From: a virus | Taxonomy: Duplodnaviria > Heunggongvirae > Uroviricota > Caudoviricetes | Strand: one strand, 5' to 3' | Virus record (IMG/VR): IMGVR_UViG_3300043313_000558 | DNA length: 64,000 nucleotides | Shown here: in pieces, positions 27,082 through 55,166 of the stretch | Position numbering within the stretch: position 1 is the stretch's first letter | Layout of the letters: every line of letters begins with the position of its first letter | Position numbers and translations under genes: made by a program | The notes under the pieces: model-generated | Told to the model about the DNA's origin: nothing | Databases searched by the model: none | Seen by the model: only the letters and a program-made list of their open reading frames with translations

Positions 27082-28320
27082 TCATAGCCCGTCCTCGTCC
27101 CTGTCCTTGATCTCCTCCGCCTCGTCCTTGGTGATCTCGCGGAAGTCGCCGTGGTTGGCGTCGTAGAGGTTGAAGAACAGGTCACCGGAGGACCCGTGCC
27201 GGTTCTTCTCGATGGAGGACACCGCAGCGCCCTTGCCGAAACGCTTCATGGTGATCACCACGTCGCCGTCGTTGCCCAGGTGGTCGCTCTGGGCCAGGGT
27301 GTGCAGGGCTGGCGGACGCCACCGCACGCTCACTCCATCCCGGTTGATCTGGGAGGCGGCGATGATCGGGTGGTACTTGGCCAGACAGGTGGCTTTCAGC
27401 CCGTTGGAGATCTCGGCGATGATCCGGTAGTCCTTGATCGCAGGCAGGCCCTCGTCGTTGCGCATCAGCCCGACGTAGTCGATCACGGACAGGTCGAAGT
27501 CACCTGCGTGGCTGTTCACCAGGCCCGGGGTGACCAGCCCCATGGACATCTCGTGGATGTGCACCGAGCCGGGGACCTGCTCCTCGATGGACTGCAGCAA
27601 GTGCTTGTAGTCGGCGTGCGGCCAGGTCCGGCGCAGCATCGCGTTGGCATCGACCTTGTGCCCGAGGCGACGACCCAGCGCAGCGTGCAGACGGACCTGG
27701 GCCTGCCTGCGGGTCATCTCCAGCGAGTAGAAGACCACGCTCTTGCCGTGCACCGCCGCCTCGGCAGCCATGTCGAGCAGGAAGGAGGACTTGCCGTGGC
27801 CCTGCCGGGCGGCGAAGTACCACAGCTCACCGGCACCGATGCCGTTGGTCCGGGTCTCCAGCGAGTCCCAGGGGACCGGGATCCGGGGCTCTCGCACGTC
27901 CTCGTAGCCGTCCAGGAAGGCGTAGTCGACCAGGGCGTTGCCGGGCTTGGGGGATACCACGTTCATCTTGCAGTTCTCGAAGAGCTTGTAGGCCCCCTCC
28001 ACGTCGTCGCGGTCCAGGGCCATGGTGGCGTCACGCAGCCGTTGCTGCATCTTGCGGCGGTCGAACTTCATCCGGATCTCCCGGGCGGGCCAGCCTGCTG
28101 AGGCGTGGTCGGCCGCGTACGGGAAGGCCGGGAAGGCGGCCAGGAGTTGGGAGCCGGACGGACAGGTGCCGTACTGCCGGTAGTTGGTCAGCACCCACTC
28201 GTACTCGTTGCGGTGGCCGGTGAAGTGCTCGGGCCGCAGCCCGTAGGACTCCCCCAGACCGGGGTCGTTGCTGTTGACGATGGCGGAAATGAGCAGCGTT
28301 TCAGGAGTCGTCCGTGCCAT
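27082..28320 (-). CDS. dnaB: DnaB-family replicative helicase
   Basis: Walker A ARQGHGKSSFLLDMA; RecA-like C-terminal domain layout; conserved leader motif shared with dnaE. Confidence 0.75.
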   Translation of the reverse strand: MARTTPETLLISAIVNSNDPGLGESYGLRPEHFTGHRNEYEWVLTNYRQYGTCPSGSQLLAAFPAFPYAADHASAGWPAREIRMKFDRRKMQQRLRDATMALDRDDVEGAYKLFENCKMNVVSPKPGNALVDYAFLDGYEDVREPRIPVPWDSLETRTNGIGAGELWYFAARQGHGKSSFLLDMAAEAAVHGKSVVFYSLEMTRRQAQVRLHAALGRRLGHKVDANAMLRRTWPHADYKHLLQSIEEQVPGSVHIHEMSMGLVTPGLVNSHAGDFDLSVIDYVGLMRNDEGLPAIKDYRIIAEISNGLKATCLAKYHPIIAASQINRDGVSVRWRPPALHTLAQSDHLGNDGDVVITMKRFGKGAAVSSIEKNRHGSSGDLFFNLYDANHGDFREITKDEAEEIKDRDEDGL

Positions 28321-28353
28321 GCGGGGGTCCTTCCAGGTTCAGAGCGTCTGGCG

Positions 28354-28382
28354 AACCTAGCAGAGTTGCCTAGGGTTGACAA
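28354..28382 (-). promoter_or_regulatory. putative promoter upstream of dnaB (TTGTCA-17-TAGGTT on minus strand)
   Basis: plus-strand aaccta at 28354-28359 and tgacaa at 28377-28382 with 17-nt spacer. Confidence 0.3.
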
Positions 28383-28674
28383 TGGTCCGAACGGCCACAT
28401 CCTCGGGCCACACCCAGACCATCCGGGTCCTGCCCTGGACCTGCACTCCCCCGTTGTGCGGGCATGGCCAGGTGGTCTTGTGCCCACAGGTGGTACAGCG
28501 GGCATGGACCGAGGAGATCTGGCCGGAGAAGCAGGTCTTGCACAGGTAGGTGACCCGGAAGTAGGTGTCGTCGAGCTCACGAACAGGGCGGACGCGTCCG
28601 TCGTGCAGCTTGGGGCAGTCAGGGTGAGCGTGGACCGCGCCCTTGCGGAGCCGACCAGTGCCGTACCAGGTCAT
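28357..28674 (-). CDS. Cys-rich 105-aa protein
   Basis: internal start MTWYGTGRLRKGAVHAHPDCPKLH..CKTCFSG..CTTCGHKTTWPCPHNG. Confidence 0.35.
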   Translation of the reverse strand: MTWYGTGRLRKGAVHAHPDCPKLHDGRVRPVRELDDTYFRVTYLCKTCFSGQISSVHARCTTCGHKTTWPCPHNGGVQVQGRTRMVWVWPEDVAVRTIVNPRQLC

Positions 28675-28792
28675 GCGACCATCCTCCACCCGCAGGCGAG
28701 GCACCTGAAAAACGTTTTGGATTTTGACACAAAAATAGGACCAGAAGCCCCCGCCGAAGCGGGGGCATAAAGGTCCAGAAACACGAATATTT

Positions 28793-29188
28793 TCAGGAGC
28801 CCCCGTCCGCGAGGACGGGGGCATAGAGGGCAGGGCGGTACGACTTCAGTCGGTGACAGTTGGAGCAGAGGGTCTGTAGGTTCTCGGCACGGTGGTCAGA
28901 CCGGTCGCCGTTGATATGGTCCAGGTCCATCTGACACAGGTCACCCACGAAGCCGCAGCGCACGCAGGTGTTGGTCTTGTGGTCCTTGAAGGTGTTGCCA
29001 GCGCGGTCACGGTTCATCCGCTGCTGGTGGGCTCGATAGGCCACGTCACACCGGTAGGTGTTCCCGTAGACCTTGATCTTCACCGGCCCATCCACCGCGC
29101 ACACCGCGGTGAGGGCCTCGAAGTCCTTGTTGGTCAGCTTGTGTACTTTGACTCCCATGGGGACATAGTACACCCCACCCAAACGCAA
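28793..29188 (-). CDS. HNH endonuclease
   Basis: CVRCGF..DLDHINGDRSDHRAENLQTLCSNCHRLK canonical H-N-H. Confidence 0.7.
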   Translation of the reverse strand: MRLGGVYYVPMGVKVHKLTNKDFEALTAVCAVDGPVKIKVYGNTYRCDVAYRAHQQRMNRDRAGNTFKDHKTNTCVRCGFVGDLCQMDLDHINGDRSDHRAENLQTLCSNCHRLKSYRPALYAPVLADGGS

Positions 29189-29283: not shown

Positions 29284-29754
29284 TCAGAAATCCAGGACGG
29301 TGACCTTCTCGGTCTTCGCCTTGGGCTGGGCCATCGCGGCAAGGTCGCCGCCATTGACGGGCGCGTTACGCCCGGCGGTGCAGCAGTGGTTAGCTGCGTG
29401 CTCAGCGCCCTTACGGCCGTCGGCTCCTGTGCCGAACTGATGTGCTGAGCAGTGGTCGTTGTCGTAGGTGAACTCCTGACCACAGGAGGTACACCGGTAG
29501 CCCGAGCACTCGATCATGGTCCAGTCCCCTTGGTCAAGGAAACAGGTGCTGTCCTCGTTGTGACAGGCCCAGGTTGGAACTCCGACCAGGATCTTGGTCT
29601 CGCCCGCGAGGAAGGTATCGCCATCGTCATCGCGATACCCATTCGAGGTAACGAAGTAATGGCCCTTGCGAGGACCTTCTGACTCTTCGAAGTAGCAGTC
29701 ACAGCTGTTGCAGTAGTACTTGTGGACCCGAGTGAAGTGCTCGGCGTTGGCCAT
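29284..29754 (-). CDS. Cys-rich 156-aa protein
   Basis: CNSCDC ... CTSCGQ ... HCSAHQ multiple metal-ligand pairs. Confidence 0.4.
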   Translation of the reverse strand: MANAEHFTRVHKYYCNSCDCYFEESEGPRKGHYFVTSNGYRDDDGDTFLAGETKILVGVPTWACHNEDSTCFLDQGDWTMIECSGYRCTSCGQEFTYDNDHCSAHQFGTGADGRKGAEHAANHCCTAGRNAPVNGGDLAAMAQPKAKTEKVTVLDF

Positions 29755-36565: not shown

Positions 36566-36739
36566 CTACTTCAGTCGCAGAGTTCGCAACCGTAGCCCTG
36601 CGGGTACGCGCTGGACTCGCCCATGTAAGCGAGATCGACGTACCGCACGACGTTGTTGAGCCGGACCTCAATGGCCCGGCAGCCGAGACACTGCCCGTAG
36701 ATGGGCTTGATCTCGACGTCTGCCTTGGTGTCGGCCATA
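36566..36739 (-). CDS. zinc-ribbon peptide (57 aa)
   Basis: hand translation MADTKADVEIKPIYGQCLGCRAIEV...GYGCELCD. Confidence 0.3.
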
Positions 36740-36747
36740 GCTCCCTC

Positions 36748-37116
36748 TCAGACGGCCCGCAGGCGCGGGCTGCTGTCGTCCTCGGCCTGCATCAAGGACG
36801 AGTAGAGCTCAGCGATCTTGCGCTGCTGAACCTCGACCATCCGAGCCAGGGCCCGGCTGGCCAGGTCCTGGTTGGTCGCGGCCACCACCTTGGCGGTGGC
36901 CTGCATCGGCAGCACGTCCTCCGGCTGGTTCAGGAAGTACCGAACCACCCCGGATAGCTCCGGGTGAAGGTGGACCAAGGTGTTGGCCAGGTTCCAACGG
37001 GTGGCGTGCACGACGTCGGTGCCGACGCCCTTGCACTTGACGCCCACAGCAACGCTGCAGGTCGGGCACTGGATGTCGGTGTACGAGCCGAGGACCTCGG
37101 CGTGGGCGATCTTCAT
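36748..37116 (-). CDS. 122-aa protein with N-terminal zinc ribbon
   Basis: internal start MKIAHAEVLGSYTDIQCPTCSVAVGVKCKG. Confidence 0.4.
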   Translation of the reverse strand: MKIAHAEVLGSYTDIQCPTCSVAVGVKCKGVGTDVVHATRWNLANTLVHLHPELSGVVRYFLNQPEDVLPMQATAKVVAATNQDLASRALARMVEVQQRKIAELYSSLMQAEDDSSPRLRAV

Positions 37117-41955: not shown

Positions 41956-42279
41956 CTACAGCTTGCGGGTGATGATCTCCTTGTAGTTCATGTTGCTCCG
42001 GTGGCAGATCGCACACGCGAAGCCGTTCAAACCGTGGTGCACACAGCAGTGTGCGATCCAGCCCTGGATGTAGATCACGCAGGGCTCACAAAGCAGGATG
42101 GTGCACCCGCTCTGCGCACCGACATGAGAACCAAGCCAGGTGGCCGGTTCCTTGTGGTGGCTCTTGCAGCGCTTCTTGCGCACGTCGCACGGAACGGACT
42201 CGTCGAAGTCCTCCATGGTGATGGTGTCGAAGTCCAGACCCTCGTGGGTGAGCTCGTCGATGCCGGGGATCGAGGTCAT
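41956..42279 (-). CDS. Cys-rich 107-aa protein
   Basis: internal start MTSIPGIDEL; CKSHH..CTILLCEPC..HCCVHH..CAICH. Confidence 0.4.
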   Translation of the reverse strand: MTSIPGIDELTHEGLDFDTITMEDFDESVPCDVRKKRCKSHHKEPATWLGSHVGAQSGCTILLCEPCVIYIQGWIAHCCVHHGLNGFACAICHRSNMNYKEIITRKL

Positions 42280-42599
42280 GTCGGTTCTCCTTGGATGTCG
42301 GTTGGAATGTCGGAGAGGTCTACGTAGTCGGCCATGGGTGCCGTGTACTGGTTGAAGGAGGGGAACAGGTGCTCGGCCATGCACTGCATAACGTCGCACT
42401 GTTCTCCGTTCTGGAAGTCGTTGAACTGTTGGGTGACCTTGGCGATGAGCCGTAACCTGCACATGTCGCAGGCGAGGAAGACCTTCTCGCAGTCCCCGGT
42501 GAAGTCGGGCTTCGGGTGGAGGACTACGTACTGCTTTTCTCTGGGGGTCTCGGAGAAGTGCGAGCACGCTCCGAACGGTTCGAGGTACTGGGTCGTCAT
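42276..42599 (-). CDS. Cys-containing 107-aa protein
   Basis: GDCEKVFLACDMCRL. Confidence 0.4.
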   Translation of the reverse strand: MTTQYLEPFGACSHFSETPREKQYVVLHPKPDFTGDCEKVFLACDMCRLRLIAKVTQQFNDFQNGEQCDVMQCMAEHLFPSFNQYTAPMADYVDLSDIPTDIQGEPT

Positions 42600-42819: not shown

Positions 42820-43080
42820 CTACATGACGCCCTTGAGGAAGGAGGGCTGCTCCACTGGAGCACGCTCCCTGCGCTTGGCATCCCGCATGTTGCTGCGGTG
42901 CCCGTTACGGCGCTTCCAGGCCTTGAACCGGGCCTCGTGGACGTTGTGCCGACCTACGCCCTGGCACCGGTCTCCGGGCCAGGCGTTGCACTGCGGGCAC
43001 TGGACGTTGGTGGCCAGGTCCTTCTTGGTCTTCTTGCGGGCACCCACGATCGACATCGCGGCTCCGCGGCTTCCCTTCAT
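42820..43080 (-). CDS. basic zinc-ribbon protein (86 aa)
   Basis: CPQCNAWPGDRC followed by a Lys/Arg-rich tail. Confidence 0.4.
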   Translation of the reverse strand: MKGSRGAAMSIVGARKKTKKDLATNVQCPQCNAWPGDRCQGVGRHNVHEARFKAWKRRNGHRSNMRDAKRRERAPVEQPSFLKGVM

Positions 43081-44014: not shown

Positions 44015-44226
44015 CAGGCGGGCTTCCCCCAGGGCCGCTTCTGCCCGGAGTTCTTGGGGATCGTGTAGAGCCCCTTGACCGCGTGGCAGTCCCGACAACG
44101 GTGCATGTCGTCCCAGTGGCCGATGGTGCCGCCGTCGAGGTGGTAGCCCCGACGCCAGCAGACCCAGTGGCCCTTGATGTGCCTGAACTCGATCTCCAGG
44201 CGCTCGCGGATGCTCTTCTTGTGCAT
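44014..44226 (-). CDS. His/Cys-rich 70-aa protein (HNH-like)
   Basis: HIKGHWVCWRRGYHLDGGTIGHWDDMHRCRDCHAVKG. Confidence 0.35.
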   Translation of the reverse strand: MHKKSIRERLEIEFRHIKGHWVCWRRGYHLDGGTIGHWDDMHRCRDCHAVKGLYTIPKNSGQKRPWGKPA

Positions 44227-44552
44227 CAGTCCTCCATGAACGACGTGAGCGACAGATCGAGGCGTGCGGCATTCATGCCGTCGCTCAACCCCATGACGTA
44301 GATGCGCCAGATCACGTTCCTGCGCCTGCCGTGGACGTAGCCCTGGTAGGGGAACGCGTCCCTGACCGTTTGGCAGGGCTCGCCGGGCTTGGCCTCGCAG
44401 ACCGGACAGAGCACCAGCTCGACGGCCTTCTTCATCAGCCGATCGCGGTGGTGCTCGACCAGGCTCTGGTGCTGGTCCAGACGCCGTTGCCGTTCGTCCT
44501 GAGCGTGCTCGATCTGCTCTCTGGTCCTGGTCCCGAGGTCGCTGATGGTCAT
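44226..44552 (-). CDS. hypothetical 108-aa protein with CxxC
   Basis: internal start MTISDLGTRT; LCPVCEAKPGEPCQ. Confidence 0.35.
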   Translation of the reverse strand: MTISDLGTRTREQIEHAQDERQRRLDQHQSLVEHHRDRLMKKAVELVLCPVCEAKPGEPCQTVRDAFPYQGYVHGRRRNVIWRIYVMGLSDGMNAARLDLSLTSFMED

Positions 44553-47108: not shown

Positions 47109-47477
47109 TCATTCGTAACGCTCCTTGTTGAGTGCGGACTTCGCCTTGTGGCGGGCCCGTCGGTTCTGCCTTCTGCGGTAGTACTGCGAGGTGCACAGCT
47201 GGCACCCGCAGTCGCTCTTGATCCGGCCGTGCAGGCCGATGTACGGGTCCGGGGACCAGTAGCACTGGACCCGGTTTAGGTGAAACATCCCGTTCCACTT
47301 GGACTGCCAGATCCGGAACATGGTCGGCGGTATCGAGGTCGGGTGGTGCCCGGTCAACGGGGGCAGGTTGCAGTTCTTCGGGTCTGCCAAACACTCGCGG
47401 GAGTGCACCGGTTGGGCGGTGCGGTCTCCCTCAACAGCCTGCACCCGCCATGGGCGGGTCTTGTCGGTCTTACTCAC
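47109..47477 (-). CDS. small Cys-rich protein (122 aa), last member of tandem array
   Basis: CGCQLCTSQYY; basic C-terminus. Confidence 0.4.
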   Translation of the reverse strand: MSKTDKTRPWRVQAVEGDRTAQPVHSRECLADPKNCNLPPLTGHHPTSIPPTMFRIWQSKWNGMFHLNRVQCYWSPDPYIGLHGRIKSDCGCQLCTSQYYRRRQNRRARHKAKSALNKERYE

Positions 47478-47724
47478 TCTTCTCCTCTTTCTTCACCCCG
47501 CCTTCGGGGAACATCAGCGCCTGGTACATGGCGTTCTCGCTGCGCAGCGTGTACACCTGCTTCATCAGCTCGATGACGCAGTCGGGGCAGATCGCCTCGG
47601 GCTTGTGGTCCTTGCCCTTCCACGGGCCGATGTGCCCGCAGAGGCCGGTCACTAGGTGGCCGACCTTGGTGTCGTCGTCGACGACCTCGGTGATGTGGCC
47701 GAGCTCGTCGTTGGGAGTTCCCAT
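47470..47724 (-). CDS. small zinc-ribbon protein (84 aa), tandem array member
   Basis: internal start MGTPNDELGH; CGHIGPWKGKDHKPEAICPDC. Confidence 0.4.
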   Translation of the reverse strand: MGTPNDELGHITEVVDDDTKVGHLVTGLCGHIGPWKGKDHKPEAICPDCVIELMKQVYTLRSENAMYQALMFPEGGVKKEEKSE

Positions 47725-47726
47725 CG

Positions 47727-47984
47727 TCACGCTTCTCCTAGGATCGTCCAGTGGTTTTGGACTTGTAGCGGTCGGTTGCATTTGTTGCACCCGACGGTGA
47801 GCTCGGGCTTTCCTTCGTAGCTGCGGATCGTCGCGGTGCACTGCTCGCAGACGTAGACGACCTGGTAGTCGCCGCACAACGAGCAGTTGATCCGCATGAT
47901 GTGGGTGCCCCGGTGGATCGACGGGTCACCGTGGAAGTGGCACTTTTTGGGCAACGCCTCCTGACCTCGAACTACCTGGGCCAT
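47727..47984 (-). CDS. small Cys-rich protein (85 aa), tandem array member
   Basis: internal start MAQVVRGQ; CHFHG..CSLCGDYQVVYVCEQC..CNKCNRP..HWTILGEA. Confidence 0.45.
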   Translation of the reverse strand: MAQVVRGQEALPKKCHFHGDPSIHRGTHIMRINCSLCGDYQVVYVCEQCTATIRSYEGKPELTVGCNKCNRPLQVQNHWTILGEA

Positions 47985-47995
47985 CACCAGCTCCT

Positions 47996-48346
47996 TTACT
48001 GTGCGACGTCGCCGATGGTCTTCCAGAGCACCCGGGATTCGCTGACCCCATTGCAGTCCTTGCAGCGGGACCGCGAACCCGTGTTCTGCTGGTAACTGTC
48101 CACGTCCATGGCGCAGTGGGCGCACACCGAGACGATCTTGAAGACGCCGCACTTTTGGCAGTCGACTCGTAGGTACCGGCACGAGATCACCCCCGGCTGG
48201 CCGACGGCATCGTGGAAGTAGCAGAACTCACTGGGCTCCTTCTTCTTGCTGATGACGGTGACGATGTCGCCCGCGCTGCCGCTGGTGGTAGCGGTCCAGG
48301 TGACCCCGTTGCCGACGATGGTGAGGTTGTTGACGAGTACGGCCAT
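47996..48346 (-). CDS. small Cys-rich protein (116 aa), tandem array member
   Basis: internal start MAVLVNNL; CRYLRVDCQKCG..CAHCAM..CKDCNG..LWKTIGDVAQ. Confidence 0.45.
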   Translation of the reverse strand: MAVLVNNLTIVGNGVTWTATTSGSAGDIVTVISKKKEPSEFCYFHDAVGQPGVISCRYLRVDCQKCGVFKIVSVCAHCAMDVDSYQQNTGSRSRCKDCNGVSESRVLWKTIGDVAQ

Positions 48347-48615
48347 CAGGCCCTCCCGAGGATGTCCATGCCCACCGGCATACGGCGGTTCTTGTGGCAG
48401 CCCATGCATCTCCACCTGGGCCGTTGGTCCAGCGGCATCTCCCTGGCGAAGTTGTTGCGACGCTCGATGTACTCCTTGCAGTCGTCGCAGATCTCCAGCA
48501 CCTGGAAGTAGTCGCACTTGTCGCAGGTCCGGCGCAGCAACCACTTTGCTGGCTTCCGGTTGCAGACCGTGGTCCGCTGGCACATGCCCAGCGGGTTGTT
48601 GGCGTAGACGGCCAT
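48346..48615 (-). CDS. small Cys-rich protein (89 aa), tandem array member
   Basis: internal start MAVYANNPLG; CDKCDYFQVLEICDDC..CMGCHKN..MDILGRA. Confidence 0.45.
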   Translation of the reverse strand: MAVYANNPLGMCQRTTVCNRKPAKWLLRRTCDKCDYFQVLEICDDCKEYIERRNNFAREMPLDQRPRWRCMGCHKNRRMPVGMDILGRA

Positions 48616-48863
48616 TACTCCGCCACGCTCTCGTAGAGCGTCCAGGCCAGGTTCGCCTCCATCGACCGCTTGCACTTCGGGCACCAGGTGTAGGCACCCC
48701 AGCCCTTGTCGATGTAGGCCCGGAAGACCTTGGCGCAGGCGGTGCACATGCCGGTGATCGACATGTGCCCACACCGCGGACACGAGTGCCGCACGTAGTG
48801 GGTGATCGGTTCCAGGTTGCGTACCGGGTGGCCCTGACCTGCGATTTCACAGAACATGCTCAT
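48615..48863 (-). CDS. small Cys-rich protein (82 aa), tandem array member
   Basis: CPRCGHMSITGMCTAC...CPKCKRS. Confidence 0.45.
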   Translation of the reverse strand: MSMFCEIAGQGHPVRNLEPITHYVRHSCPRCGHMSITGMCTACAKVFRAYIDKGWGAYTWCPKCKRSMEANLAWTLYESVAE

Positions 48864-49120
48864 CAGACGCTCCCTAAGATCGCCCAGTAGTCCCGGACGC
48901 GGCCCTCGTGGTGGCAGTACGAGCAGTGCATCGAGGTGTTGGCCCTGATCTTCTCCTCGACGTGGTCACGGCAGGTTGGGCACAGGGCCTTGATCTTGTA
49001 GTAGCTGCAGCGCTCCGGGTGGTACGGGCAGGTGCTGCGCATGAGGACCACGGCAAACCGGTTGGAGTGGTCTGATCGGTAGGTGCAGTACTGGGGCTCC
49101 ATTTCTCTCCTTGCGGACAT
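48863..49120 (-). CDS. small Cys-rich protein (85 aa), first member of tandem array
   Basis: CPYHPERC..CPTCRDH..CSYCHHEG..YWAILGSV. Confidence 0.45.
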   Translation of the reverse strand: MSARREMEPQYCTYRSDHSNRFAVVLMRSTCPYHPERCSYYKIKALCPTCRDHVEEKIRANTSMHCSYCHHEGRVRDYWAILGSV

Positions 49121-49126
49121 GAAGAA

Positions 49127-49160
49127 GCCCCCTGGTCGAAGGCAGTGACGACCAGGGGGC
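49127..49160 (-). terminator. 12-bp-stem hairpin upstream of the Cys-rich array
   Basis: gccccctggtcg / cgaccagggggc. Confidence 0.4.
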
Positions 49161-49226
49161 CCCGAACGGGTGCAGCGGAAGATCGCGCTCCCGCTCAGGC
49201 CAACCTGGGAGGCATTTCCAGGTTGG

Positions 49227-50075
49227 TCACTTGGTGATGGTATTGGGGTCGGTCAGCTCAAAGTCCGCCAACGCCTCCTCCACCGAGGTGTAAACCGGTA
49301 GGTCAGGATATCTACTCCTGATCCTCTGCATCGCGTACTCATCCGGCTGGAAGGTGTGCGGGAACTGTCGCCGGATGTCGGCCATGAACGCCATCTGCAT
49401 GCTGTGGTAGCCGTTGCTGGCCTTGGTGTAGTTCCTCCAGCGGCGCTTGTGGACCTTGCCCACCACGGCCATCACCACAGTGCCCGACCAGCAGATCAAG
49501 GTCGGGATCGGAAACGGCAGCACCGTGGTGAAGGTCAGCACCAGCCCGAAGACCAGCAGGAACACCGCGGCGAACATCCCGAACCACAGCAGCCTCATGC
49601 TGGGCATCTTGGGCTCGCCGGGCTTCTCCTCGTACGCCGCGAGGGTGTCCTCGTCGTCGTAGGCCAGGGCCAGGATCTCCATCTTCTCGGAGCGGAAGCC
49701 CTGGTCACCGTAGGTGAGCCGACCGTAGGCCTTGACGATCGCGAAGACCCCGCCGACCGGCAGGTAGGTGTAGGCCCTCTTCTGGGTGAAGTAGGCGTAG
49801 AACCCACAGGAGCATTCCTGCATGGCCACCTTGTGGTCGACCAGCCCCTTCTCGGTGTACGCCTTGCCCATGTGGCCAACTCGGACCTGACGACGGACCA
49901 GCAGCCCACCGTCGTTGTAGTTGATGCAACCCGCCACGTTGGTATTGGTCGGGTTCCACACGAAGTGCTGCTGCGGGGAGTGGATGTACCCGCTGGCTGT
50001 GATCGTCATTGCCCTTATCCCCACCAGGTACCCCGGGTATACCGGGGCCGCGTGTCGGGAGAAGTAGTCCTCCAT
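49227..50075 (-). CDS. 282-aa protein with central transmembrane segment
   Basis: LLWFGMFAAVFLLVFGLVLTFTTVLPFPIPTLICWSGTVVMAVVG hydrophobic block between two soluble domains. Confidence 0.45.
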   Translation of the reverse strand: MEDYFSRHAAPVYPGYLVGIRAMTITASGYIHSPQQHFVWNPTNTNVAGCINYNDGGLLVRRQVRVGHMGKAYTEKGLVDHKVAMQECSCGFYAYFTQKRAYTYLPVGGVFAIVKAYGRLTYGDQGFRSEKMEILALAYDDEDTLAAYEEKPGEPKMPSMRLLWFGMFAAVFLLVFGLVLTFTTVLPFPIPTLICWSGTVVMAVVGKVHKRRWRNYTKASNGYHSMQMAFMADIRRQFPHTFQPDEYAMQRIRSRYPDLPVYTSVEEALADFELTDPNTITK

Positions 50076-50159: not shown

Positions 50160-50480
50160 CTAGGAGACCTTGTTCAGCTCGCCCTTGAAGGTGAGGTCCT
50201 CGGCGGTGTGCTTGCCGTTGTCGGGGTCCTCGCACTTGCAGTAGTACTGGTCGCGGTAGCCGTACTGGACGCACCTCCAGCACAGCCGGACGGTGTGGTA
50301 CTTCTCCTTGTCGGCCTGCGTCTTGCAGCAGTCGGAGTTGTCGACCTCGACCATGATGATCGCCGGGACGTCGTCACCACCGCGGTGGTTGACGTACTGG
50401 CACTTCTTGCCGGTCTCGCGGTACGGGTCGAAGGCCTCGTCTTCGGCCATCCGCTCGACGTTCACCTTGTAGTTACTCAT
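50160..50480 (-). CDS. Cys-rich 106-aa protein
   Basis: SDCCKTQ..LCWRCVQYGYRDQYYCKCED. Confidence 0.4.
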   Translation of the reverse strand: MSNYKVNVERMAEDEAFDPYRETGKKCQYVNHRGGDDVPAIIMVEVDNSDCCKTQADKEKYHTVRLCWRCVQYGYRDQYYCKCEDPDNGKHTAEDLTFKGELNKVS

Positions 50481-53205: not shown

Positions 53206-53496
53206 TCACGACTCCTCCTCGACGGGCTTGATCTCGTCCTCGTCGGTGAGGGTGACCTGGAAGACGGTCTTGTCGCCGATCGCCTTCTTGGCGGCCTCGA
53301 TGTCTCCCCACCAGCACTGGAAGCCCCAGACGCCCTTGCCGTCGTCGAGCAGGATGTAGGGGTTCTTGATCCCCAGCTCCTTGAATGGGCTGACGTCCGG
53401 AACGCGGTTACCGACGTAGGTGCCCTCGCCGAACACGTGGACGGAGACGTCGGTGGACTTCTGCATGGCCATCACCTTGGCCCCGACGGCGGTCAC
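53206..53496 (-). CDS. hypothetical 96-aa protein
   Basis: ORF. Confidence 0.35.
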   Translation of the reverse strand: MTAVGAKVMAMQKSTDVSVHVFGEGTYVGNRVPDVSPFKELGIKNPYILLDDGKGVWGFQCWWGDIEAAKKAIGDKTVFQVTLTDEDEIKPVEEES

Positions 53497-54413
53497 GGGT
53501 TCACCAGCGCGTTGCCGTAGGTGGGCTGCCAGGGGTTGATCCCCTTGGCGACCGCCTGCGCCTTGGCCCAGGCCTCGGCACCGCCGTAGCTACGGATCTC
53601 CGCAGCTCGGATCTGCGCCTCGATCTGGGCGACCTTGAGCTCGGCCTCCTTCTGGGAGACCTGGCTGTTGGCTGCCGCCTCCGCAGCCGAAGCGTCCGCC
53701 TTGGCCTTGGCCTCGGTGGCCTTGGCAGCGGCGATCGCCTCCTCCTGAGAGCGCACTGAGGCGACCAGGGACTCCGGGGCGATCGGCTGGGTGACCAGCA
53801 CCGAGTAGCCCTGGAAGAAGTCCTCCTGGCCCTCCATCTGCTGGTTGATCAGCCGGGCGATCGTCTCGTTGACGTCGGCGTTGATCTTGTCCTTGATCGA
53901 CGGATCGGAGCGCAGCTCGTTCCAGGTGTACTGCTTGGCGAGCCGGTCCAGCGAGGCGTCCAGCGGAGGTGCCATGTAGAGGTTGAGCACCTTGGTCCAG
54001 CCGTCACCGGTCTGGTTGTCCTCCATGTAGGCCCGGTACCGGTTCCCGATCAGGTCGTGGAACCGCTGCAGGACCTTGCAGTCGGTGTTGAGCACGAAGC
54101 TCAGCGTGCCCGGGATGGTCAGGGTCTGACCGTCCTTGGACACCACCTCGAAGGGCCCACGGTCGCTGCCGTTGACCCCGCGGAAGTCGAAGACCCGCTG
54201 GTTCTGGGGGTAGGCGTAGTAGTCGTCGCCCATCCCGGTACCCCAGTTGATCTGTCGGGTGGCTGCCGGGACGCAGCCCTTGTCCTCGTGGCCCTCGGAG
54301 ATACCGGAGCCCTTGTGCACGAACACCTCGTCAGCCTGGGTGCTGGGTGCGGAACACCCGGCAAGCGCCAGAGCTGCGAGGATGCCGCCTGCAACTGCCT
54401 TATTCATCTTCAT
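53493..54413 (-). CDS. lipoprotein (306 aa) with Ala/Glu-rich coiled-coil C-terminus
   Basis: lipobox LALAGCSAP; C-terminal ..AAAKATEAKAKADASAAEAAANSQVSQKEAELKVAQIEAQIRAAEIRSYGG coiled coil, reminiscent of SPFH/band-7 tails. Confidence 0.5.
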   Translation of the reverse strand: MKMNKAVAGGILAALALAGCSAPSTQADEVFVHKGSGISEGHEDKGCVPAATRQINWGTGMGDDYYAYPQNQRVFDFRGVNGSDRGPFEVVSKDGQTLTIPGTLSFVLNTDCKVLQRFHDLIGNRYRAYMEDNQTGDGWTKVLNLYMAPPLDASLDRLAKQYTWNELRSDPSIKDKINADVNETIARLINQQMEGQEDFFQGYSVLVTQPIAPESLVASVRSQEEAIAAAKATEAKAKADASAAEAAANSQVSQKEAELKVAQIEAQIRAAEIRSYGGAEAWAKAQAVAKGINPWQPTYGNALVNP

Positions 54414-55093: not shown

Positions 55094-55124
55094 CGTGCTT
55101 CCCTTTCTGTTTAGGGCAGCAAAA

Positions 55125-55166
55125 AGCGCCCTGCTCCCAGGCCGGGCGTGGCCTGAAAGAGGGCGC
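55125..55166 (-). terminator. compound hairpin + T5 on minus strand, 18 nt downstream of a TATAAT box
   Basis: outer stem gcgccct / agggcgc, imperfect inner stem caggcc / ggcctg; plus-strand aaaaa at 55120-55124. Confidence 0.45.

What the first reader, a model, noticed from the sequence alone, without database searches (positions are those of the whole stretch)
47109..49120. Tandem array of seven translationally coupled small Cys-rich paralogues
Seven consecutive 82-122-aa ORFs each carry three to four CxxC/CxxH pairs, and several end in a shared W-x-ILG motif (HWTILGEA, YWAILGSV, LWKTIGDVAQ, MDILGRA). Almost all starts overlap the previous stop (ATGA). This looks like an expanded family of zinc-ribbon proteins unique to this phage lineage. 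Further Cys-rich singletons occur at 50160..50480, 41956..42599, 29284..29754, 28357..28674 and 36566..37116. Possible roles are host-factor inhibitors, anti-defence proteins, or nucleic-acid binders deployed early.
Basis: seen in the sequence. Interest (0 to 1): 0.7.

Follow-up and report, generated by a model that had tools for sequence, protein, structure and literature searches.

The report
Five-paralogue zinc-finger cassette in phage
An uncultured high-GC phage carries five (not seven) adjacent genes for ~80-residue proteins of one undescribed two-zinc-finger family, kept in the same order in related uncultured phages, with function still unknown.

Summary
The ORFs are real minus-strand genes (GC3 0.80-0.92). 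Only five of the seven are paralogues: g1 48863-49102, g2 48615-48863, g3 48346-48615, g4 47996-48346 and g5 47727-47984. They share C-x2-6-[H/C] ... R-x2-C-x2(6)-C-x8-C-x2-C-x12-27-C-x2-C ... W-x-I-L-G, which gives eight ligands and implies two zinc ions. g6 and g7 are unrelated (hhalign probability 1.9% and 0.4%).

Pfam, PHROGs, NCBIfam, GenBank phages, IMG/VR and GTDB genomes hold no relative. An exhaustive HMMER search found about 50 small relatives, all metagenomic.

In divergent relatives the order g1-g2-g3-(g4)-g5 recurs, with each paralogue grouping with its positional orthologue. The duplications are therefore old and fixed, not a recent expansion.

Start/stop overlap is the genome's general style (29 of 48 junctions). 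A conserved three-hairpin, terminator-like RNA element lies directly upstream of g1.

Function is inferred only. The most likely role is a set of non-enzymatic binding modules with distinct partners.

The parts
49122..49226 (-). Conserved structured RNA element of three hairpins, the last terminator-like with a U-rich tail. It lies between the upstream 282-aa membrane-protein gene and g1, and ends about 20 nt before the g1 start.
   Evidence: MFE -73.2 kcal/mol, z -5.7. Terminator-like site at 49143..49127. Aligned with L011, L014 and L016, 37 pairs are predicted and 6 carry compensatory changes; the central hairpin sequence is nearly invariant across the four sequences (two one-base differences). 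Nucleotide identity is 83-88% against 73-80% for the flanking CDS. No Rfam family. Single copy in the window.
48863..49102 (-). g1, 79 aa (85 aa if started at 49120). Family member, clade 1. Knuckle 1 is widened to C-x6-C (CPYHPERC).
   Evidence: Profile E 6e-21. Groups with L011_1, L016_1 and L017_1. GC3 0.91.
48615..48863 (-). g2, 82 aa. Family member, clade 2. C-terminus is WTLYESVAE instead of W-x-ILG. Start overlaps the g1 stop by 1 nt.
   Evidence: Profile E 6e-22. Groups with L016_2, L011_2 and L017_2.
48346..48615 (-). g3, 89 aa. Family member, clade 3. The most basic of the five (net charge about +7.5). Conserved LRR..YI..RN..WRC..R.MP.GMDILG. 1-nt overlap with g2.
   Evidence: Profile E 2.5e-20. 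Groups with L008_3, L011_3 and L016_3.
47996..48346 (-). g4, 116 aa. Family member, clade 4, with a ~35-residue N-terminal extension. 1-nt overlap with g3. Absent from relative L016.
   Evidence: Profile E 1.6e-19. Sister to the g5 clade.
47727..47984 (-). g5, 85 aa. Family member, clade 5 (CHFHG ... W-x-I-x-G-x-A). Has its own AGGAG Shine-Dalgarno 11 nt after the g4 stop. This protein was modelled with AF2.
   Evidence: AF2 pLDDT 89.3, pTM 0.73. Profile E 8e-25.
47470..47724 (-). g6, 84 aa, acidic (pI 5.1). Has C-x-H ... C-x2-C followed by a long helix. Not a family member, but conserved at this position in relatives, where it lies between g5 and a sixth member.
   Evidence: hhalign probability 1.9%. 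Orthologues in L003, L008, L009, L011 and L016. Weak sub-threshold DUF3039 hit.
47109..47477 (-). g7, 122 aa, very basic (pI 10). Not a family member. It occupies the slot that holds a sixth family member (CWYH...ESCG...RR.VGK) in L011 and L016.
   Evidence: hhalign probability 0.4%. No Pfam, PHROG or NCBIfam hit. Homologues in L008, L016 and L019. Sixth-member clade shown.
41956..42279 (-). Possible remote, degenerate relative of the family, 107 aa. The knuckle-1 Cys pair is reduced to one Cys, and there is an extra HCCVHH cluster. Not established as a member.
   Evidence: hhalign vs family alignment A3: probability 70.5%, E 3.9e-5. hmmsearch is not significant (E 1.7). 40% identical to an L019 protein that hits the family profile at E 8.7e-4.

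Best explanation
SHOWN. The locus is a cassette of five anciently duplicated genes, g1-g5, for a previously undescribed ~75-90-residue protein family. Two unrelated small genes, g6 and g7, follow. The cassette lies in the non-structural small-gene region of an uncultured ~84-kb high-GC tailed phage, probably of Actinomycetota. Each protein carries eight conserved Cys/His ligands: an N-terminal C-x2-6-H/C, then C-x2(6)-C, then C-x2-C at the start of a helix, then C-x2-C. A C-terminal strand W-x-I-L-G follows. The same paralogues recur in the same order in divergent relatives, and each keeps its own set of invariant non-ligand residues.

INFERRED. The domain binds two Zn ions. The secondary-structure layout favours an interleaved, cross-brace-like arrangement. 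In it, knuckle 1 pairs with knuckle 2 as a zinc ribbon, and the N-terminal C/H pair joins the helix-N-terminal pair as a treble-clef-like site. The sequential arrangement is not excluded.

The proteins have no catalytic motifs, signal peptides or membrane segments. They most likely act as zinc-stapled, non-enzymatic binding modules made together from one transcript. Each would recognise a different partner (host or phage protein, or nucleic acid) to reprogramme the cell during infection, rather than forming a redundant or rapidly expanding arsenal. Confidence is about 0.9 for the family, fold and evolution part, and about 0.35 for the 'separate binding modules with distinct partners' mechanism.
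For: Homology of g1-g5 and the invariant R plus six Cys.

Family of about 50 small proteins, with the core motif in 43 of 48. Ligand substitutions are Cys-to-His, not random.

Confident AF2 model (pLDDT 89.3). CxxC loops sit between strands 28-33/40-45 and 63-65/72-74, and CxxC starts helix 47-55.

Real coding frames and mild purifying selection (dN/dS 0.25-0.7 against close orthologues).

Conserved order and clade-wise orthology.

Clade-specific invariant residues outside the ligands.

Member gain and loss between relatives argues against an obligate fixed complex. L016 lacks g4, the window lacks the sixth member, and L019 and L010 have different sets.

No enzyme or known family.
Against: No experimental or homology-based functional evidence of any kind exists. 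Metal binding and ligand pairing are inferred, because model coordinates could not be inspected. Conserved order over long distances, plus tight packing, would also fit subunits of one complex. Proteins are mildly basic (median pI 8.5, g3 +7.5), which fits nucleic-acid binding as well. Expression timing is unknown. The terminator-like element directly upstream leaves the promoter unidentified.
Confidence: 0.4

Rival explanations
1. The five proteins are sequence- or structure-specific nucleic-acid binders, acting as transcription or translation regulators. They might act on the conserved three-hairpin RNA leader directly upstream for autoregulation or antitermination.
For: Mildly to strongly basic (g3 net +7.5). 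A helix starts at a CxxC pair, as in DNA-reading treble-clef fingers (own knowledge). A conserved structured RNA with a nearly invariant central hairpin abuts the cassette. Other small DNA-binding-type zinc fingers (PF24623) occur in the same region.
Against: The helix after the CxxC is not consistently basic across clades. There is no match to any DNA- or RNA-binding family above threshold. The RNA element is absent from more distant relatives that still have the array (L017-L019).
Confidence: 0.25
2. g1-g5, perhaps with g6, are subunits of one hetero-oligomeric assembly. Tight coupling would ensure stoichiometry, and the edge strands and hairpins would mediate beta-sheet augmentation between paralogues.
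Confidence: 0.15
3. This is a recent, lineage-specific expansion driven by an arms race, that is, anti-defence or host-factor inhibitor paralogues diversifying rapidly.
For: Paralogues are only about 25% identical. dN/dS is not very low (0.25-0.7). The family is restricted to one group of uncultured phages.
Against: Each paralogue has a positional orthologue in divergent phages, so duplications are old and copies are stably retained. Clade-specific residues are invariant. This does not exclude an anti-defence role for individual, stably kept members.
Confidence: 0.1
4. The Cys clusters bind Fe-S clusters or act as redox switches, like the WhiB-like regulators common in actinobacteriophages, rather than holding structural zinc.
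For: Seven to eight Cys in small actinophage-type proteins with a conserved Trp near the C-terminus. Wbl proteins are frequent in such phages (own knowledge; paper PMC13013590 listed).
Against: There is no Whib Pfam hit in any of the 48 members. The ligand pattern is three CxxC pairs plus C/H, not C-x14-22-C-x2-C-x5-C. His replaces Cys at ligand positions. The predicted knuckle and helix geometry is typical of zinc sites.
Confidence: 0.05

Closest known systems
Cross-brace / treble-clef two-zinc fingers (B-box, ZZ, RING, FYVE; ArfGAP-type treble clef)
Archaeal Nop10 zinc ribbon and small archaeal zinc-finger proteins (HVO_2753-like PF07754, DUF1610-type)
   Same: Stand-alone small proteins with C-x2-C-x8-C-x2-C. 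The family profile hits Nop10 chains at E 1.6e-3 over about 23 residues. JGI pipelines labelled orthologues 'S27E', 'DUF1610', 'RPC12/RpoP' and 'RPR2'.
   Different: All scores are far below the curated cut-offs (17.6 vs 33.2 bits for PF07754). The match covers one CxxC-x8-CxxC stretch only. The second site, the C-terminal strand and the Nop10 C-terminal helix do not correspond. In the AF2 model the eight intervening residues form one strand rather than a tight hairpin.
Phage_zn_bind_8 (PF24623), small putative DNA-binding phage zinc fingers
   Same: Small zinc-finger proteins in the same non-structural region of the same phage. Three copies reach the gathering score, at 44226-44552, 42820-43056 and 36748-37116.
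   Different: g1-g5 and the other 43 family members do not hit PF24623. It is a different family.
WhiB-like (Wbl) proteins of Actinobacteria and their phages
   Same: Small Cys-rich regulators common in actinobacteriophages, with a Trp-containing C-terminal motif (own knowledge).
   Different: The four-Cys Fe-S pattern and the G[VI]WGG turn are absent, and there is no Pfam Whib hit.
Host-takeover modules of small early genes (e.g. SPO1, T4, T7 early regions; own knowledge)
   Same: A run of tightly packed, co-oriented small genes without enzymatic motifs in the non-structural part of a lytic-type phage genome.
   Different: Those modules are made of unrelated proteins. Here five members are paralogues kept in fixed order. 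Expression timing is unknown.

Membership tests
New family defined here (alignment A3) | N-terminal C-x2-6-H/C, then R-x2-C-x2(6)-C-x8-C-x2-C-x12-27-C-x2-C, then a C-terminal aromatic-x-[ILV]-x-G strand; length 64-119 aa | tested here: met
   g1-g5 match at E 1.6e-19 to 8e-25. The core motif is present in 43 of 48 members. g6, g7 and all other window ORFs fail.
Treble-clef zinc finger (structural class) | Two ligands come from a zinc knuckle and two from the first turn of an alpha-helix | tested here: inconclusive
Cross-brace fingers (B-box PF00643, RING, ZZ) | Significant profile or fold match, with interleaved ligand pairs 1+3 and 2+4 | tested here: not met
Zinc-ribbon Pfam/NCBIfam families (Zn_ribbon_8 PF09723 / FmdB TIGR02605, Zn_ribbon_6, DZR) | Score at or above the curated gathering cut-off | tested here: not met
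   Best is g2: 21.2 bits vs 34.4 (PF09723) and 20.0 vs 31.3 (TIGR02605). At most 3-4 of 48 members hit weakly.
Nop10 (archaeal) zinc ribbon | Homology over the Nop10 N-terminal ribbon and the C-terminal Cbf5-binding helix | tested here: not met
   Only 23 residues (C-x2-C-x8-C-x2-C) align, E 1.6e-3, 21.6 bits. The rest does not align.
HVO_2753-like / DUF1610 small zinc-finger proteins | Pfam PF07754 or NCBIfam PRK14890 score at or above cut-off | tested here: not met
   17.6 vs 33.2 bits, and 17.5 vs 61 bits, for g2 only. Two of 48 members hit.
Phage_zn_bind_8 (PF24623) | Score of at least 24 bits | tested here: not met
   No hit for g1-g5 or any of the 48 members. Three other window proteins do meet it.
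WhiB-like (PF02467) | C-x14-22-C-x2-C-x5-C Fe-S motif and a G[VI]WGG turn; Pfam hit | tested here: not met
   No Pfam hit at E <= 1 for g1-g7 or E <= 0.05 for the 48 members. The motif is absent from the alignment.
Any PHROG family | Significant profile hit | tested here: not met
   Best E for g1-g5 is 2e-3 to 8e-3 to unrelated families. No family is hit by more than 6 of 48 members.

The most novel reading that the evidence does not exclude
The ordered cassette of five to six ancient paralogues, plus the embedded acidic g6, would encode a hetero-oligomeric zinc-finger assembly peculiar to this phage clade. It would capture a central host factor, for example RNA polymerase/sigma or the nucleoid silencer Lsr2, whose dimerisation domain is the top though weak fold match. 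Its synthesis would be gated by the conserved three-hairpin leader through regulated terminator read-through or SD sequestration. The invariant loop of hairpin 1 contains CCUCC, which is complementary to the g1 Shine-Dalgarno.
Probability: 0.1. Interest if true: 0.7.

Novelty: new variant of a known kind. Interest (0 to 1): 0.4.

Why it matters
Small Cys-rich ORFans are very common in phages of high-GC Gram-positive bacteria and are almost entirely uncharacterised. Here one such set turns out to be a coherent, undescribed two-zinc domain family with a confident structural model. It has about 50 relatives and an unusual evolutionary signature: five to six paralogues held in fixed order, each with its own conserved surface. 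That gives a defined family, clear orthologous groups and specific residues to mutate. It turns 'Cys-rich hypothetical proteins' into a testable set of candidate effectors or regulators. The conserved structured RNA directly upstream is a second, independent lead on how this gene block is expressed. If the proteins target distinct host factors, they would be compact, zinc-stabilised binders useful as probes of actinobacterial physiology.

Tried and rejected
1. Near-DNA search of the locus in GenBank phages gave no match.
2. tblastn of g5, P0043 and P0061 against GenBank phages found nothing relevant. There was one E 0.1 hit in a Bacillus phage.
3. IMG/VR scan with the g5-clade alignment found no relatives. 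GTDB genomes and metagenome contigs scanned with the g3-clade alignment gave none. Alignments A3 and A4 were too divergent for pattern building in some collections.
4. Pfam, PHROGs and NCBIfam on g1-g7 and on all 48 members gave only scattered sub-threshold zinc-finger hits.
6. g6 and g7 as distant members: rejected by phmmer, hmmsearch and hhalign.
7. The other Cys-rich 'singletons' as members: rejected. The exception is a possible remote relative at 41956-42279.
8. Translational coupling as a special feature of the array: rejected, because 60% of neighbouring junctions overlap.
9. Rfam match for the upstream RNA element: none. Collection scans with its invariant 25-mer returned only a contig already in hand.
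10. The closest cultured phage by DnaE, Gordonia phage ChisanaKitsune, is a myovirus with no family member in 50 kb of its genome.
11. Two literature searches found nothing on such a family.
12. Annotation of neighbouring genes was mostly empty.
Full report
CONTEXT. The window has 62-66% G+C throughout, and essentially all long ORFs with coding signal lie on the minus strand. It is about 64 kb of an ~83.7-kb phage genome that recurs almost identically in several metagenome assemblies, for example ENA ERZ27257245 contig k141_429302, locus L001.

Recognisable genes are:
- a tape-measure protein with an SLT domain;
- a Mu-like portal;
- a DnaE-like Pol III alpha subunit;
- an AAA ATPase;
- a DnaB-like helicase and an HNH endonuclease.

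The locus has no near-DNA match in GenBank phages. The best protein matches are to actinobacteriophages. DnaE is 35% identical to Gordonia and Brevibacterium phages, and the portal is about 44% identical to Arthrobacter phages. The host is therefore probably a high-GC Gram-positive bacterium; this is an inference. The finding lies in a long run of small unannotated genes between the tail genes and the replication genes.

CHECK OF THE OBSERVATION. Seven consecutive minus-strand ORFs are present:

| Gene | Coordinates | Length |
|---|---|---|
| g1 | 48863-49102 | 79 aa (85 aa from the upstream ATG at 49120) |
| g2 | 48615-48863 | 82 aa |
| g3 | 48346-48615 | 89 aa |
| g4 | 47996-48346 | 116 aa |
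| g5 | 47727-47984 | 85 aa |
| g6 | 47470-47724 | 84 aa |
| g7 | 47109-47477 | 122 aa |

Third-position GC is 0.80-0.92 in these frames, and metagenome gene callers call the same genes. The alternative 'another frame' is therefore excluded. Against close orthologues, Nei-Gojobori dN/dS is 0.25-0.7. With such biased codon usage dS is underestimated, so this indicates purifying but not strong constraint.

g1-g5 contain 7-8 Cys each, against a baseline of 1.25% Cys.

The junctions are not ATGA. Three are 1-nt overlaps (TGATG or TAATG), one is an 8-nt overlap, and two are short gaps. In the surrounding 20 kb, 29 of 48 junctions overlap, so coupling is the genome's style rather than a property of this array.

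FIVE PARALOGUES, NOT SEVEN. g1-g5 align with an invariant Arg and six invariant Cys. Pairwise phmmer E-values range from 4e-11 to 1e-2, with g1/g2 the weakest pair. A profile of the five plus orthologues finds exactly these five in all six frames of the window; the next hit has E 0.09. A 48-sequence family profile gives the same answer. g6 and g7 show no relationship (hhalign probabilities 1.9% and 0.4%).

- 28793-29188 is an HNH endonuclease;
- 36748-37116 is a Phage_zn_bind_8 protein;
- '41956..42599' is two genes.

The second of those two genes (41956-42279) may be a remote, degenerate relative. Its hhalign probability is 70%, E 3.9e-5. It is 40% identical to a protein of a distant relative that hits the profile at 8.7e-4. 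I leave it as a possibility.

THE FAMILY. The word-indexed search found only orthologues from near relatives. The exhaustive HMMER search of 1.84 billion representatives found 105 hits at E <= 1e-3. About 50 of these are 64-100-residue proteins matching the whole profile. The remainder are long proteins with repeated generic C-x2-C-x17-C-x2-C units that match only profile positions about 41-77, and I do not count them.

In the 48-sequence alignment the first Cys, the two knuckle pairs and the helix pair are invariant or nearly so. The core C-x2(6)-C-x8-C-x2-C-x12-27-C-x2-C is intact in 43 of 48. The five exceptions carry Cys-to-His swaps, altered (C-x-C) spacing or, in one case, a lost ligand. 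The N-terminal Cys is followed after 2, 5 or 6 residues by His in 30 of the 43 sequences with an intact core. Eight ligands imply two metal sites, and Cys/His interchange points to zinc.

No member reaches any Pfam, PHROG or NCBIfam threshold, and no family is hit consistently. Nothing was found in GenBank phages, IMG/VR, GTDB species genomes or 50 kb of the nearest cultured phage by DnaE.

STRUCTURE. With the 48-sequence alignment AlphaFold2 models g5 at mean pLDDT 89.3, pTM 0.73. An 11-sequence alignment gave 74.6 for g1. The order of elements is:
- an N-terminal C-H-F-H segment;
- hairpin 28-33/40-45 with C34-x2-C37 in its loop;
- C46-x2-C49 opening helix 47-55;
- hairpin 63-65/72-74 with C66-x2-C69 in its loop;
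- a short helix;
- the C-terminal strand 79-84, which is the W-x-I-L-G motif.

That motif is therefore most likely a core strand rather than a functional tag (inference).

Knuckle 1 is at the tip of a six-residue hairpin and the helix pair is at its base. I therefore consider an interleaved arrangement somewhat more likely than the sequential one suggested by the local Nop10 similarity (E 1.6e-3 over 23 residues). In the interleaved arrangement, knuckle 1 pairs with knuckle 2, and the N-terminal pair joins the helix pair. I could not inspect coordinates, so this is unresolved.

EVOLUTION AND ANATOMY OF THE CASSETTE. Contigs of more divergent relatives show the same neighbourhood: genes of about 255, 108 and 285 aa, then the array.

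| Locus | Order of genes in the array |
|---|---|
| L011-L013 | g1, g2, g3, g4, g5, g6-like non-member, sixth family member |
| L016 | g1, g2, g3, g5, g6-like non-member, sixth family member |
| L008/L009 | g3, g4, g5, g6, g7 |

More distant contigs (L010, L017, L018, L019) carry two to six tandem or clustered members of partly different types.

A neighbour-joining tree places each window paralogue with its positional orthologues. BLOSUM distances are 0.14-0.6 to orthologues and 0.76-0.81 to the nearest window paralogue. g4 and g5 are sister clades, and there is a sixth clade that the window lacks. Each clade has its own invariant non-ligand residues, for example LRR..YI..RN..WRC..MP.GMDILG in g3 and CHFHG..Y..R..W.I.G.A in g5.

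The duplications are therefore old. The copies are individually maintained and non-redundant, with occasional loss or replacement. In the window, g7 sits where relatives have the sixth member.

UPSTREAM RNA ELEMENT. The 124-nt spacer before g1 folds into three strong hairpins (-73 kcal/mol, z -5.7). The last is terminator-like with a U-rich tail. The element is conserved in L011, L014 and L016. The central hairpin is nearly invariant across the four sequences, with two one-base differences. Six pairs in hairpins 1 and 3 show compensatory changes. Identity is 83-88% against 73-80% for the flanking genes.

It matches no Rfam family and is absent from the more distant relatives in hand. Only about 20 nt separate it from the g1 start. 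The cassette must therefore be transcribed either through this structure or from a promoter upstream of or within it. No sigma-70-like promoter was found, though that scan is of limited value for this host type.

With four distinct sequences the covariation evidence is suggestive, not conclusive.

MECHANISM. Nothing enzymatic, secreted or membrane-bound is apparent. The proteins are small, mildly basic and predicted to be rigid, zinc-stapled domains.

My best-supported reading is a co-expressed set of non-enzymatic binding modules, each with a distinct partner (probability about 0.35-0.4). It rests on clade-specific conserved surfaces together with the observed gain and loss of individual members.

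The rivals are:
- nucleic-acid-binding regulators, possibly linked to the leader RNA (0.25);
- subunits of one hetero-oligomer (0.15);
- a rapidly expanding arms-race family (0.1), contradicted as to timing by the tree;
- Fe-S or redox proteins (0.05).

All functional statements are inference. What is shown is the family, its conservation pattern, the predicted fold and the genomic anatomy.

VERDICT. The zinc-finger interpretation is well supported. 'Lineage-unique expansion' should be replaced by 'ancient ordered cassette of an undescribed family confined to a clade of uncultured phages'.

It is a new family within a well-known general kind, small phage zinc fingers. The unusually stable multi-paralogue architecture and the adjacent conserved RNA structure are its most interesting aspects. 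Interest is moderate (0.4), limited by the absence of any functional handle.

Noticed in passing
window 49122-49226 (- strand); also L011 2530-2660, L014 2301-2436, L016 6285-6419: Conserved three-hairpin, terminator-like RNA element directly upstream of g1. The central hairpin sequence is nearly invariant across phages whose flanking proteins are about 50% identical, and there are compensatory changes in the outer hairpins. There is no Rfam family. The invariant loop of hairpin 1 contains CCUCC, complementary to the g1 Shine-Dalgarno.
   Followed up: partly
window 55105-55153 (- strand): A second, weaker copy of the terminator-like hairpin portion of that element (nhmmer E 0.002), in the gap after the Gp80-like gene.
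   Followed up: no
window 44226-44552, 42820-43056, 36748-37116 (- strand): Three small proteins each just reach the Pfam gathering score for Phage_zn_bind_8 (PF24623; 26.9, 24.2 and 24.3 bits against a cut-off of 24). This is a second, unrelated zinc-finger family present in several copies in the same phage.
   Followed up: partly
window 41956-42279 (- strand): A 107-aa protein that may be a remote, degenerate relative of the g1-g5 family (hhalign probability 70%). It has lost most of knuckle 1 and gained an HCCVHH cluster. It overlaps the preceding 107-aa Cys-rich gene (42276-42599) by 4 nt.
   Followed up: partly
window 47109-47477 vs L011 4144-4380 and L016 7649-7894: The slot after g6 holds the unrelated basic protein g7 here and in L008. 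In L011 and L016 it holds a sixth member of the zinc-finger family. g7 homologues occur elsewhere in L016 and L019 (39-52% identity). This is a gene replacement at a fixed position.
   Followed up: partly
window 47470-47724 (- strand): g6 is an acidic 84-aa protein with C-x-H...C-x2-C followed by a long helix. It is conserved inside the array in all relatives seen. It has a weak sub-threshold similarity to the actinobacterial DUF3039 (E 0.036).
   Followed up: no
window 49227-50075 (- strand): A conserved 282-aa protein with a Cys-containing N-terminal domain (CSCGFYAYF) and a long hydrophobic, probably double membrane-spanning, segment. It always lies immediately upstream of the RNA element and array. 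No Pfam, PHROG or NCBIfam hit.
   Followed up: no
window 53493-54413 (- strand): A phage-encoded Band_7/SPFH-domain protein (PF01145; phrog_200 'lipoprotein', E 3e-21) sits among the small genes downstream of the tail genes.
   Followed up: no
window 27082-29188 (- strand): An HNH endonuclease gene (28793-29188) lies upstream of, and one small ORF (28357-28824) away from, the DnaB-like helicase gene (27082-28320) in the replication module.
   Followed up: no
whole window: The phage as a whole is very poorly represented. There was no near-DNA match in GenBank phages for the 2.4-kb locus searched. The 724-aa tail-region protein hits only an EBPR siphovirus at 24% identity. Most large proteins have no Pfam or PHROG family.
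   Followed up: partly
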